This document shows, one piece after another, positions 6,363-8,489 of a stretch of DNA of 42,563 nt; the stretch's first letter is position 1; each line of letters begins with the position of its first letter. Source of the DNA: Promethearchaeota archaeon. GTDB lineage: Archaea; Asgardarchaeota; Lokiarchaeia; Sigyniarchaeales; SOKP01. Both the position numbers and the translations under genes were made by a program. The stretch covers positions 1-42,563 of the forward strand of contig JAHLWS010000032.1 of assembly GCA_019057795.1 (NCBI GenBank). Direction: 5' to 3'. The notes below the pieces were generated by a model. It searched no databases and was not told where the DNA came from. It saw nothing but the letters and a program-made list of their open reading frames with translations.

Positions 6363-6956
6363 ATGAATATAATCTCAAAATTCTTAAAAAATTGGAAAAA
6401 GAAAAAATTAATAAAAAGAAAGAAGGTTATCTTTAGACCGCCCTTTAGTTATGATCATACATTTAAAATTATACTATTGGGTGAACCTGGAGTAGAAAAA
6501 ACTGCTTTAGCACAGCGGTTTTGCTTTGACCTTTTTAATCCCTCAGAAGAGCTAACCATTGGAGTGGATTTTTATGTTAAAACCATAGAATTACAAGGAA
6601 AGAAAATTAAATTACAAATTTGGAATGTAGGGGGTGAAGAAAGATTCAAGTTCCTCATACCGACTTATTGTAATGGTGCAAATGCAGCTATGATCATATT
6701 TGATATTACGAATTCTAAATCTTTAAACCAAATATCAGAACTGACTCAAATTGTAAGAGAAAAAGCAACTAATATTCCAATTATGTTGATTGGCAGTAAA
6801 TTAGATTTAAAAGAATTTCGTGAATTAAATAGAGAAGAGGGAATTGAAATCGCTAATAAATATAACCTATTTAGTTATAGTGAAATCTCGACCAAAACGG
6901 GTCAGAATATAGAAAAATCATTTGAAACTCTAACAGAATTTCTAATAAACCAATGA
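6363..6956 (+). CDS. Rab/Ras-like small GTPase with degenerate G boxes
   Basis: FKIILLGEPGVEKT, TIGVDF, KLQIWNVGGEERF, GSKLD, EISTKTG. Confidence 0.92.
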   Translation: MNIISKFLKNWKKKKLIKRKKVIFRPPFSYDHTFKIILLGEPGVEKTALAQRFCFDLFNPSEELTIGVDFYVKTIELQGKKIKLQIWNVGGEERFKFLIPTYCNGANAAMIIFDITNSKSLNQISELTQIVREKATNIPIMLIGSKLDLKEFRELNREEGIEIANKYNLFSYSEISTKTGQNIEKSFETLTEFLINQ

Positions 6957-7047: not shown

Positions 7048-8314
7048 TTAAGCGCTCAACAGGGCTTTCGCGACGGTTTGCCATTCAACAACTTTCTTAG
7101 ACGATACTCCGCTAATTTTAGAAGCAACAATCTCGGGGTCTGAATTTATTAAGTCTTCGACCGAATTTATTCCGCTTTTCACTAAGTTTCTCGCGGTACC
7201 ATCTCCGATTCCTTTAACATCTATCAGCGAGAGATCTCCATTGATATTACCGGAACCTTCGCTCTCTTCGGCGTTACTTTCTTCTTCGTACAATGTTTCG
7301 ACTTCGAAATCTAAGCCTTGAGCTTCGGGAACTTCTCCCTTTTCTGTGTCGGCAATTCCTACACTCGTTATGTAAAACTCTGCTTCTTCAGGTGGCAAGT
7401 CAGGCGCATCCACTATTATTGCTCTGCGTTTCAGCGAACTGTTCGACGAGAATCCCTTTGTTTTAAACATAACTCGGAAGTGGCAGCCATGGGCTACGAT
7501 TTAGAAGTGATTGATGAAATATCTTGTCACTATTTCCGCCTATAGCGTCGTTTCCTGAGAACATTCCCATCATTTTAGTTGAAACTTGATTGGTTAAAAG
7601 AATGGCGCAATTGTAAGTCTCCGAGATTCGAGAAAGGGCGTGTATCATGTTATTTAAAAATCCTTGCCGGCGAGCTAACATGCCAATACCCACATATTCG
7701 GCCCGTAATAGCGCCATCAAACTGTCTACTACAATTAGACGCACATTTCGAGTTTTGCATAAAGTTTCTGCTTTTTGAATCATTTGCGATTGGTGGTCCG
7801 ATGAATAAATTCTGGCGTGATAAATCTGGGATAAAACCTTTTTAGGATCGAGGCCAAACCTTCTAGCGATGCGTTTGATTTTTTCTTTAGCAAAAGTGTT
7901 TTCGGTGTCGATGTAAGCTACTGCCGAACCGAGTCCTCCCTTACTCTTAGGAAGTTGAATGGTCACTGCTATCGTGTGAGCTAAATTGGTTTTACCGGAC
8001 TTAAAGGGGCCGTATACTTCGGTGAGTTTGCCGGTTTGGAATCCGCCGCCTAAAATTCGGTTCAGCTCGGAAGAGCCAGTGGTAATGTACTCGGTGTTCT
8101 CGTCGATCTCCTCGGCAGTTATGAACTCGGTCATACCTAACGCGGTTCGCGCGTTCCAAATCAGTTTTTTGGCGGTTTTATCTCCTAGACCATCGATCTC
8201 CGATATGATGTTATGTGGGGACATTGCTAAAGCTTCCGCCGTGCTAATACCGCTCTCTTGCAAGAGCTTTATCTGCCGAGCGTTGATCCCTTTTACTTGG
8301 TCTAAATCTGACGT
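7048..8314 (-). CDS. radA: RadA/Rad51-family recombinase paralogue; two exons (8314-7532, 7500-7048), ~411 aa, with an extra C-terminal HhH domain
   Basis: N-terminal HhH, TTGSSELNRILGGG, Walker A GPFKSGKT, YIDTENTF, Walker B LIVVDS, TNQV. Joining the exons gives IGGNIVAHGCHFRV…VDAPDLPPEEAEFYITSVGI. Proposed start is ACG 8314, 8 nt after GGAGTTGAT. Confidence 0.92.
7501..7531 (-). other. Candidate 31-nt bulge-helix-bulge mRNA intron in radA
   Basis: mRNA GGC-GGAA-AU^A-GUGA-(16 nt)-UCAC-UUCU-AA^A-UCGUAGC. Cutting after the second nucleotide of each 3-nt bulge removes exactly the insertion that breaks the frame. Confidence 0.85.
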
Positions 8315-8489
8315 TTTTTTGTATCAACTCCATATTGTAATTTGAATTAAACCAGTATACAATCGATTCTATATAAAGAAAAAAAATTTTTCCACCATAT
8401 TATGTTTATAGACATCTTTTTATATCACCTTAGAGTCTTAATATATAAATAATTATAAACAAAATTTTAAAAAACGGATGTCATGAATA

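What the first reader, a model, noticed from the sequence alone, without database searches (positions are those of the whole stretch)
7490..7548. Bulge-helix-bulge mRNA intron inside radA: recombinase possibly gated by tRNA-type splicing
Seen: radA is broken right after the conserved GGN at the end of the L2 ssDNA-binding loop by 31 nt (minus strand AGTGACAAGATATTTCATCAATCACTTCTAA, 7531-7501). The RNA folds as a central 4-bp helix GGAA/UUCU, 3-nt bulges AUA and AAA, an intron helix GUGA/UCAC, and an imperfect exon-exon helix (GCUAU/GUAGC). Established: the archaeal splicing endonuclease EndA cuts after the second nucleotide of each bulge and RtcB ligates. Applying that rule gives GGC GGA AAU|AUC GUA GCC CAU = GGNIVAH, the expected RadA motif, in frame. 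Protein homology and RNA structure therefore give the same junctions independently. The unspliced mRNA ends at TAA 7463 and lacks the last strands of the ATPase core. Archaeal mRNA introns are best known from crenarchaeal cbf5; I do not know of one in radA or in Asgard mRNAs, but cannot check. Inference: splicing may act as an on-switch, analogous to HAC1/XBP1 non-spliceosomal splicing.
Basis: partly seen in the sequence, partly recalled or inferred. Interest (0 to 1): 0.95.

Follow-up and report, generated by a model that had tools for sequence, protein, structure and literature searches.

The report
tRNA-type intron splits Asgard radA gene
A recombinase (RadA-family) gene of a Loki-type Asgard archaeon is broken by a 31-base insert shaped like a tRNA intron. 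Dozens of relatives keep that shape at the same spot through compensating mutations, so the mRNA is almost certainly cut and rejoined by the tRNA-splicing enzymes, which papers report inside a coding sequence for only one archaeal gene (cbf5).

Summary
A RadA-family gene on the minus strand is interrupted by 31 nt (7531..7501) right after GGN, and exon 2 (7500..7048) continues in another frame.

Evidence that the insert is a bulge-helix-bulge (BHB) intron:
- The same 31-nt (rarely 30-nt) insert sits at the identical site in 9 species genomes, this one included, and 60 metagenome contigs, all Promethearchaeota (Lokiarchaeia).
- In 57 distinct sequences the 4-bp central helix pairs in 100%, with compensatory changes. 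The bulges are 3 nt, and the intron hairpin covaries.
- Intron-less orthologues read exactly the junction that the BHB cutting rule predicts.
- Exon 2 of intron-bearing alleles stays open in 40 of 40 loci and is under strong purifying selection (dN/dS about 0.03), so this is not a pseudogene.
- The genome encodes EndA alpha and beta subunits and RtcB.

- The exon-exon helix is not conserved, so the motif is the HBh' class.
- The gene is a third RadA paralogue; two ordinary copies are intact.
- Nothing supports an on-switch. The intron was gained or lost at least 8 times.

This scan has already noted similar mRNA introns on other DNA, several of them in this genome. I confirmed one here, in elf1.

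The parts
7532..8314 (-). Exon 1 of the RadA paralogue: N-terminal HhH domain and RecA/Rad51 core up to the GGN that ends the L2 region. The probable start codon is ACG at 8314..8312.
   Evidence: NF003301 RadA, 273.6 bits against a cut-off of 259. Start position: relatives have ATG, ATT, ACG, ATA or TTG at the same spot behind the same Shine-Dalgarno sequence.
8322..8331 (-). Shine-Dalgarno-like GGAGTTGATA, 7 nt upstream of the ACG start.
   Evidence: conserved as (A/T)GGAGTTGAT in most orthologues.
7501..7531 (-). The 31-nt BHB (HBh' class) intron.
7534..7537 (-). Central helix H, 5' strand (exon nucleotides GGAA, from codons GGA AAT).
   Evidence: columns 28-31: paired in 57 of 57 sequences; A-U changed to G-C compensatorily in 7.
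7531..7533 (-). 5' bulge A-U|A. The predicted cut lies between 7532 and 7531.
   Evidence: columns 32-34 are A 57/57, U/C, A 56/57. The junction equals that of the intron-less alleles.
7507..7530 (-). Intron hairpin h'. The outer pairs are GUGA/UCAC in this window (up to 6 bp in relatives). It also has a 1-nt bulge, an inner 3-bp stem GAU/AUC and a 5-nt loop AUUUC.
   Evidence: helices 3 and 4: compensatory changes at 6 of 9 pairs. RNAalifold recovers the hairpin.
7503..7506 (-). Central helix H, 3' strand (intron nucleotides UUCU).
   Evidence: columns 59-62.
7500..7502 (-). 3' bulge A-A|A. The predicted cut lies between 7501 and 7500.
   Evidence: columns 63-65 are A in 57 of 57 sequences.
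7048..7500 (-). Exon 2: the last strands of the ATPase core (IVAHGCHFRVMFKTKG...GIAD), an acidic linker, a second C-terminal HhH domain, and stop TAA at 7050..7048.
   Evidence: HHH_5, 1e-10, residues 91-140; open in 40 of 40 intron-bearing loci; dN/dS 0.027.
7463..7465 (-). Stop codon TAA reached by the unspliced reading frame.
   Evidence: ORF 7463..8263.

Best explanation
The 31 nt at 7531..7501 are an archaeal bulge-helix-bulge intron of the relaxed HBh' class inside the coding sequence of a RadA-family paralogue of a Lokiarchaeial (Promethearchaeota) archaeon. In the pre-mRNA, the exon nucleotides GGAA pair with the intron nucleotides UUCU. Each strand of that helix is followed by a 3-nt bulge (AU|A and AA|A), and the intron body forms a hairpin. 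The host's heterotetrameric (alpha-beta)2 splicing endonuclease EndA cuts after the second nucleotide of each bulge. RtcB then joins the exons to give ...GGA AAT|ATC GTA..., which reads AIGGN|IVAHG. This restores the frame for the last 150 codons: the end of the ATPase core and a second HhH domain. Splicing is most likely constitutive and obligatory for making the full protein. The intron is most likely an old, neutral passenger that has been lost precisely many times, not a dedicated switch. What is shown: the structure, its conservation and covariation, the junction, selection on exon 2, and the presence of the enzymes. What is inferred: actual cleavage and ligation, and that splicing is constitutive.
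For: (1) The same site and size recur. All 11 interrupted orthologues found by protein search carry exactly 31 nt after GGN. A pattern scan found 60 metagenome contigs, 57 with 31 nt and 3 with 30 nt, and 10 contigs in the species-genome collection, all Promethearchaeota assemblies. (2) Structure: in 57 distinct sequences the central helix is paired in 100% of cells, with A-U to G-C compensation in 7. The hairpin has compensatory changes at 6 of 9 pairs. Overall, 100 cells changed on both sides against 38.5 in shuffles, 0 of 500 shuffles reach the covariation score, and slid registers give 30-57% pairing against 91.9%. The 30-nt variants have quite different sequences but the same geometry. 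RNAalifold recovers the hairpin and 3 of the 4 central pairs without being given the structure. (3) Intron-less orthologues read GGN|I(V/I)AH, exactly the junction the cutting rule gives. The alternative bulge register would give a stop codon. (4) The gene is not dead. Exon 2 is open for 139-157 codons in 40 of 40 intron-bearing loci. Its dN/dS is 0.027, against 0.034 in intron-less alleles. (5) Exon nucleotides appear to be constrained by pairing. The third position of the second Gly codon is only A or G in intron-bearing alleles (0 of 57 are T or C), whereas 4 of 22 intron-less alleles have T. (6) Machinery: EndA alpha with the Tyr-His-Lys triad, best matched by crenarchaeal alpha subunits 3p1z_B and 2cv8; a second EndA paralogue that lacks the His, so beta-like; and RtcB. 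PMC5829648 reports that Asgard archaea have (alpha-beta)2 EndA with the L1 loop that allows relaxed motifs. (7) Precedent in the same genome: elf1 at C70:101393-101424 carries a canonical hBHBh' 32-nt intron whose removal restores the CPNC zinc knuckle.
Against: On the single sequence, the minimum-free-energy fold does not form the central helix and is no more stable than shuffles (z = -0.79). The outer exon-exon helix that closes the 3' bulge in canonical motifs is weak. In this window the pair next to the bulge is C.U. Across sequences, pair 27-66 forms in 72% and pair 26-67 in 44%. The 3' cut site therefore sits in a relaxed context, which only broad-specificity EndA enzymes cut. Most of the 57 sequences came from a pattern scan that fixed the exon codons, so exon conservation among them is partly by construction; the intron columns were free.
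Confidence: 0.88

Rival explanations
1. Splicing is real but regulated. The intron acts as an on-switch that gates production of the full RadA paralogue, for example under DNA damage, by analogy with HAC1/XBP1 unconventional splicing.
For: The unspliced mRNA would give a protein that lacks the end of the ATPase core. The gene also has a weak, non-AUG start codon (ACG), which suggests low and possibly controlled expression. The relaxed 3' site could make cleavage rate-limiting.
Against: Many close relatives lack the intron, for example an allele 88.5% identical in DNA with the same neighbouring gene. Presence changed at least 8-10 times on the gene tree. Two canonical RadA genes are uninterrupted. 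At least one unrelated gene (elf1) carries the same kind of intron. No sensor or dedicated nuclease is apparent next to the gene.
Confidence: 0.1
2. The insert is handled at translation rather than by splicing. Either a +1 frameshift reads through it, adding about 10 residues, or the ribosome bypasses it as in T4 gene 60.
For: 31 nt is 10 codons plus 1, and in this window the exon-1 frame has no stop inside the insert. The hairpin could stimulate recoding.
Against: The exon-2 frame has UAA immediately before the junction, so a shift would have to occur at the very last codon. The 30-nt variants carry in-frame stops; in one of them the second codon of the insert is TAA. The insert's 'peptide' is not conserved. 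A landing AAU would be out of frame with exon 2. The conserved 4-bp helix with two 3-nt bulges is what EndA needs, not what recoding needs.
Confidence: 0.03
3. The gene is expressed as two separate polypeptides. The first is a 286-aa N-terminal part. The second is a C-terminal part started at the internal ATG (MFKTKG...). They work alone or assemble, and the RNA is never joined.
For: An ATG lies 10 codons into exon 2 (ORF 7048..7470).
Against: The 10 codons between the junction and that ATG (IVAHGCHFRV) are kept at the protein level in all 11 interrupted orthologues found without the pattern. No Shine-Dalgarno sequence precedes the ATG. The split would cut a beta-strand of the RecA core. This reading also leaves the conserved BHB geometry unexplained.
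Confidence: 0.04
4. The insert is an assembly artefact, or the gene is a decaying pseudogene.
For: One metagenome copy (L055) has two in-frame stops in exon 1 and a more diverged exon 2. The annotated start ATG is missing.
Against: The insert is present in more than 70 independent contigs from many projects. Exon 2 is open in 40 of 40 loci and its dN/dS is 0.027. The non-AUG start is conserved across relatives with intact genes.
Confidence: 0.02

Closest known systems
BHB intron in the cbf5 (pseudouridine synthase) pre-mRNA of Crenarchaeota (Watanabe 2002; Yoshinari 2006; Yokobori 2009, PMC2738675; reviewed in PMC10485636)
   Same: A short intron inside a protein-coding sequence. It has a relaxed BHB motif in a non-tRNA context, in a host with a hetero-oligomeric EndA. 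Its distribution is patchy, with gain and loss among relatives.
   Different: The gene is different (a RadA paralogue) and so is the phylum (Asgard, Lokiarchaeia). Here there are 57 distinct sequences with compensatory changes. There is no experimental splicing evidence, whereas cbf5 splicing was shown.
Archaeal tRNA introns at non-canonical positions with HBh' motifs, cut by (alpha-beta)2 EndA with the L1/Crenarchaea-specific loop (PMC3241643, PMC5829648; Asgard tRNA introns: bioRxiv 10.64898/2026.10.13.758758)
   Same: [quoted passage not shown] The size range is the same, and so, presumably, are the enzymes.
   Different: The host RNA is an mRNA. The exon strand of the helix is made of Gly-Asn codons, so pairing is maintained mostly by changes in the intron and by choice of the synonymous third base.
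HVO_1309 mRNA of Haloferax volcanii, cut by EndA (PMC10485636)
   Same: An archaeal mRNA processed by the tRNA-splicing endonuclease.
   Different: The host is a euryarchaeon with an alpha2 (homodimeric) enzyme. Here the intron breaks the reading frame.
HAC1/XBP1 unconventional splicing in eukaryotes (Ire1 plus tRNA ligase/RtcB)
   Same: Non-spliceosomal removal of a short intron that changes the reading frame of the C-terminal part of a protein. Ligation is by RtcB in metazoa.
   Different: The eukaryotic nuclease is the stress sensor Ire1, acting on twin stem-loops, not EndA on a BHB. Regulation is the essence there, and nothing shows regulation here.

Membership tests
Archaeal BHB intron (EndA/RtcB-spliced) | [quoted passage not shown] | tested here: met
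   In the window it is GGAA/UUCU (G.U, G-C, A-U, A-U). In 57 distinct sequences 100% of cells pair, and 7 carry a compensatory A-U to G-C change.
Archaeal BHB intron (EndA/RtcB-spliced) | Two 3-nt bulges, one 3' of each strand of the central helix, holding the cut sites | tested here: met
   AU|A and AA|A. The columns are nearly invariant. Pairing collapses if the register is slid by 1-3 nt.
Archaeal BHB intron (EndA/RtcB-spliced) | At least one flanking helix (exon-exon h or intron h') of 2 or more contiguous pairs | tested here: met
   h' has 4 contiguous pairs in the window and up to 6+3 in relatives, with compensatory changes at 6 of 9 pairs. The outer helix h is not conserved, so the class is HBh'.
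Archaeal BHB intron (EndA/RtcB-spliced) | Cutting after the second bulge nucleotide and joining gives a functional product | tested here: met
   The junction GGN|IVAH is identical to that of the intron-less orthologues. The Rad51 profile continues across it. Exon 2 is under purifying selection.
Archaeal BHB intron (EndA/RtcB-spliced) | The host encodes a splicing endonuclease able to cut relaxed motifs, and the ligase RtcB | tested here: met
   EndA alpha (C69:74212-74436 region) and a beta-like paralogue (C74:72339-72587 region). RtcB at C70:112485-113792. The L1 loop itself was not examined residue by residue.
Archaeal BHB intron (EndA/RtcB-spliced) | Spliced RNA and excised (often circular) intron exist in the cell | not testable with these tools
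RadA/Rad51 recombinase family | Scores above the curated cut-off of the RadA equivalog model; N-terminal HhH plus RecA core | tested here: met
   NF003301 scores 273.6 bits on exon 1 alone (cut-off 259) and 325.9 on the intact orthologue P0006. TIGR02236 stays below its cut-off. Pfam matches Rad51 and HHH_5. It is a divergent paralogue, about 42% identical to the two canonical copies.
Mobile intron with homing endonuclease, or a repeated intron family | An endonuclease ORF in or beside the intron, or further copies of the intron elsewhere in the genome | tested here: not met
   31 nt cannot hold an ORF. The neighbours are a Ras-family GTPase and proteins with no Pfam family. A covariance model of the intron finds only itself in the 4.95-Mb genome at E <= 10, although only 150 of 10485 first-look candidates were scored.
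Programmed frameshift or translational bypass | A slippery or matched take-off/landing site, and an insert free of stops in the frame used | tested here: not met
   UAA lies just before the junction in the exon-2 frame. The 30-nt variants have in-frame stops. There are no matched codons in frame.
HAC1/XBP1-type regulated unconventional splicing | Splicing triggered by a stress-sensing nuclease | not tested
   No expression data. No Ire1-like gene was looked for. The resemblance is functional only.

The most novel reading that the evidence does not exclude
The radA intron is one visible member of an old, genome-wide population of EndA/RtcB-spliced introns in Lokiarchaeial protein-coding genes. 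Its relaxed 3' site, together with the non-AUG start, makes splicing a rate-limiting, condition-dependent gate on a Rad51-like (GGNIVAH) recombinase paralogue. That would be mRNA splicing used for gene control in the closest prokaryotic relatives of eukaryotes.
Probability: 0.1. Interest if true: 0.9.

Novelty: new member of a known kind. Interest (0 to 1): 0.66.

Why it matters
In the papers I could search, splicing of an archaeal coding sequence by the tRNA endonuclease is documented for cbf5 in Crenarchaeota only. One further mRNA target is known in Haloferax, and a 2023 review (PMC10485636) says more probably remain to be found. This case adds a DNA-repair gene in Asgard archaea, the lineage nearest to eukaryotes. 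Its comparative record is unusually good: about 60 distinct alleles with compensatory changes, and intron-bearing and intron-less alleles interleaved on the tree. That makes intron gain and precise loss in a prokaryote directly measurable. It also gives gene callers a concrete rule, because these genes are currently annotated as truncated 266-285-aa proteins. Together with elf1 in the same genome, and with the other candidates noted by this scan, it suggests that mRNA splicing by tRNA enzymes may be routine in Lokiarchaeia.

Tried and rejected

(2) Single-sequence folding: the MFE structure has the intron hairpin but not the central helix, and z = -0.79. It is uninformative on its own.

(3) Genome-wide search for further split genes by BHB geometry plus ORF joining. 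Adjacent same-strand genes swamp the signal. Junction-shift controls gave 6401 hits against about 6520.

(4) A second design used decoy bulge sizes. The true 3/3 geometry was the highest cell or close to it at several thresholds: 26 against about 15, 51 against about 37, and 277 against about 230. At other thresholds it was unremarkable. The excess is small, and the filters miss both radA (no outer helix) and elf1 (short exon 1). Inconclusive, so it is not used as evidence.

(5) The covariance model of the intron, searched in the genome, finds only itself. There is thus no sign of a repeated or mobile family by sequence, though only 150 candidates were scored.

(6) I looked for intron-less contigs identical in their exons to intron-bearing ones, which could be cDNA. 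The closest pairs are 97-98% identical in protein and about 90% in DNA, and the intron-less contigs carry neighbouring genes on both strands. They are therefore genomic alleles.

(7) A second mini-intron at the 5' end (ATG at 8333 plus 19 nt) was considered and rejected. No BHB fits, and relatives without that ATG have ATT or ATA at the conserved start position.

(8) uL11: the N-terminal domain is clearly broken into pieces in different frames, but my strict BHB finder did not give junctions that restore the frame. Left open.

Full report
WHAT IS THERE. The window is contig C32 of a 4.95-Mb, 31% G+C assembly in 87 contigs. The closest proteins in public data are labelled Lokiarchaeota or Promethearchaeota. 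On the minus strand lies a RadA-family gene. Exon 1 (8314..7532) encodes an N-terminal helix-hairpin-helix (HhH) domain and the RecA/Rad51 core up to ...NDAIGGN. It scores 273.6 bits against the RadA equivalog NF003301, whose cut-off is 259. Exon 2 (7500..7048) lies in another frame and reads IVAHGCHFRVMFKTKGF...GIAD. It continues with an acidic linker and a second HhH domain. The Rad51 profile stops at position 190 on exon 1 and resumes at 198 on exon 2. Unspliced, the frame ends at TAA 7465..7463.

IS IT MORE THAN CHANCE? Not on this sequence alone. The minimum-free-energy fold forms the intron hairpin but not the central helix, and it is no more stable than shuffles (z = -0.79). The comparative evidence decides the matter.
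- A protein search found many orthologues at 81-95% identity. Most are 394-419 aa and read ...AIGGNI(V/I)AHGCHFRVMFKTKGF.
- About a dozen clusters are only 266-285 aa, and every one diverges right after AIGGN.
- In 154 genomes of the same order, 94 have the orthologue. Nine of these, this genome included, are interrupted, spread over four genera.
- In all 11 interrupted loci, the gap between the end of exon 1 and the start of exon 2 is exactly 31 nt. In the 24 uninterrupted loci it is 0.
- A degenerate pattern fixed the exon codons and left 16-46 free bases between them. It found 60 metagenome contigs, 57 with 31 nt and 3 with 30 nt.
- In the collection of 185,579 species genomes the same pattern found only 10 contigs, all Promethearchaeota assemblies.
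The insert is therefore real DNA. It is not an assembly artefact, and it is confined to this lineage.

STRUCTURE. I aligned 57 distinct 85-nt junctions without gaps (A1) and counted the pairs of the BHB model.
- The central helix (exon GGNA with intron UYYY; window 7537..7534 with 7506..7503) is paired in 100% of cells. When the Gly codon is GGG, the partner is C in 7 sequences (a compensatory change) and U in 1.
- The intron hairpin has 6 outer pairs, a 1-nt bulge, 3 inner pairs and a 5-nt loop. Six of its nine pairs show compensatory changes, for example G-C/A-U, U-A/C-G and G-C/U-A/C-G.
- Overall, 91.9% of cells pair, against 30-57% in slid registers. 100 cells changed on both sides, against 38.5 in shuffles. 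None of 500 shuffles reaches the covariation score.
- The bulges are A-(U/C)-A and A-A-A, nearly invariant.
- The three 30-nt introns have unrelated hairpin sequences. One has a perfect 9-bp stem, AUUAAGCAU/AUGCUUGAU. All keep the 4-bp helix and the 3-nt bulges.
[quoted passage not shown] It pairs the invariant U with the third bulge A instead of the fourth helix A. That register would splice to GGA AAA UCG UAG, a stop codon. Only the BHB register gives an open frame.
Its one free pair is unpaired in 35 of 57 sequences, and it pairs no more often in intron-bearing alleles (14/33) than in intron-less ones (11/22). The pairs directly next to the 3' bulge form in only 72% and 44% of sequences.
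The motif is therefore the HBh' class: the 5' site is well formed and the 3' site is relaxed.

THE GENE IS ALIVE.
- In all 40 intron-bearing loci with enough downstream DNA, exon 2 stays open for 139-157 codons. The range in intron-less alleles is 143-156.
- Pairwise dN/dS in the first 52 codons of exon 2 is 0.027 in intron-bearing alleles and 0.034 in intron-less ones. Exon 1 gives 0.038 in both.
- Exon 2 is therefore translated in a frame that can be reached only if the insert is removed.
- The 30-nt variants do not shift the frame but contain in-frame stops. This excludes simple read-through.
- The third position of the second Gly codon is A or G in all 57 intron-bearing sequences, but T in 4 of 22 intron-less ones. 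This is as expected if that base must pair with the intron.

MACHINERY.
- The genome has two EndA genes of about 200 aa, each with the N-terminal and catalytic domains.
- The C69 copy is most like the catalytic alpha subunits of Aeropyrum and Sulfolobus (3p1z_B, 2cv8) and keeps Tyr, His and Lys.
- The C74 copy has Asp in place of the His, so it looks like a structural beta subunit. The residue roles are as given for A. pernix in PMC3241643.
- RtcB is present.
- PMC5829648 reports that Asgard archaea have (alpha-beta)2 EndA with the L1 insert, the type that cuts relaxed HBh' motifs.

HISTORY. On a maximum-likelihood tree of 68 spliced coding sequences, intron presence needs 10 changes, and at least 8 are forced by well-supported branches. 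Intron-bearing and intron-less alleles occur as supported sister pairs. Sampling is biased, because the metagenome rows are all intron-bearing. Even so, the species-genome rows alone show both states inside one genus. An intron-less allele from a metagenome is 88.5% identical in DNA to the window's gene, as close as the nearest intron-bearing relatives. It sits next to the same Ras-family GTPase gene, which is 95.7% identical. Intron-bearing alleles lie on the deepest branches, and every intron sits at the same phase. One old gain followed by repeated precise losses is therefore the simplest history, but the tree is unrooted and cannot prove it. A covariance model of the intron finds no other copy in the genome, and no endonuclease gene lies nearby. 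There is thus no sign of a mobile family.

CONTEXT THAT CHANGES THE INTERPRETATION. The genome has two other uninterrupted RadA genes with ordinary L2 loops (C36 and C69, about 42% identical). The interrupted gene is therefore a lineage-specific third paralogue with HhH domains at both ends, not the cell's only recombinase. Earlier notes of this scan list many candidate BHB introns in protein genes of this same genome and of other Lokiarchaeia. I tested one. Pfam Elf1 matches only profile positions 26-76. Upstream of that match, a canonical hBHBh' motif has a 5-bp outer helix, central helix CCAA/UUGG, 3-nt bulges and a 5-bp intron helix. It brackets 32 nt at C70:101393-101424. Removing them joins ...KIFTCPN to CGEKAIKV..., which restores the CPNC zinc knuckle. 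A 30-nt candidate in a NAD-synthetase-like gene (C69:3676..3647...GYFTKYGD|SGVDFEPIG...) also looks real. My attempts at a genome-wide count were inconclusive. The radA intron is thus best seen as one of several such introns, not as a bespoke switch.

WHAT IS KNOWN. Full-text searches found no report of an intron in radA or in any Asgard mRNA. The 2023 review PMC10485636 lists cbf5 and HVO_1309 as the archaeal mRNAs cut by the endonuclease and expects more to be found. A 2026 preprint on Asgard tRNA introns (10.64898/2026.10.13.758758) uses the same motif definition as I do and does not treat mRNAs. This is therefore a new member of a known kind. The scan itself has found the kind before on other DNA.

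VERDICT. The BHB-intron reading has strong comparative support (confidence 0.88). The splicing itself is inferred, not observed. The on-switch idea is unsupported (about 0.1).

Noticed in passing
window 8312-8314 (minus strand); loci: This RadA paralogue has no ATG start. The codon at the conserved start position, 7 nt behind the Shine-Dalgarno-like GGAGTTGATA, is ACG here. In relatives it is ATT, ACG, ATA or TTG, and more distant ones have ATG. An in-frame TGA lies 3 codons upstream, and the N-terminal HhH residues that follow are conserved. Translation therefore probably starts at a near-cognate codon. Gene callers instead start at an internal TTG (MQESGIS...).
   Followed up: partly
G000 C70:101393-101424 (plus strand): A canonical hBHBh' 32-nt intron in the elf1 gene. 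Removing it joins ...KIFTCPN to CGEKAIKV... and restores the CPNC zinc knuckle. Pfam Elf1 otherwise matches only profile positions 26-76.
   Followed up: yes
G000 C69:3647-3676 (minus strand): A 30-nt BHB-like insert ending in an in-frame TAG, inside a NAD-synthetase-like motif (...GYFTKYGD|SGVDFEPIGALYK...). Probably another mRNA intron.
   Followed up: no
G000 C73:108650-109000 (minus strand): The ribosomal protein uL11 N-terminal domain is broken into three pieces in two frames (MSKTNKIIVKALVTGGSASGGPP / GPAVGPTGIN / IKDVVDAVNEKT...). Pfam L11_N matches only positions 26-58 and falls below its cut-off. My strict BHB finder did not give frame-restoring junctions.
   Followed up: partly
window 7048-7320 (minus strand): After the RecA core this paralogue carries an acidic linker and a second, C-terminal HhH domain (HHH_5, 1e-10). 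The HhH-core-HhH architecture is shared by the whole orthologue group (394-419 aa).
   Followed up: partly
L055 (metagenome contig SDBS01083082.1): One intron-bearing copy has two in-frame TAA stops in exon 1 (MI*KAEQLC*TRN) and a more diverged exon 2 (76% identity). It is probably a decaying copy.
   Followed up: partly
G120 (contigs C12, C20, C49); G104 (C16, C63): Some related assemblies hold several copies of this paralogue. G120 has two copies with the intron and one without. These assemblies have 6-9% contamination, so this may be a strain mixture rather than paralogy.
   Followed up: no
window 6363-6956 (plus strand) versus 7048-8314: The neighbouring Ras/Arf-family small GTPase gene is 95.7% identical in DNA to that of a close relative (L104), while the radA paralogue next to it is only 88.5% identical. 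The divergence along the locus is uneven.
   Followed up: no
G000 C36:12115-13368 region (minus strand): One of the two canonical RadA paralogues has a roughly 100-aa N-terminal extension with a C-x2-C...H-x-x-x-H-like segment and a long acidic stretch before its HhH domain.
   Followed up: no
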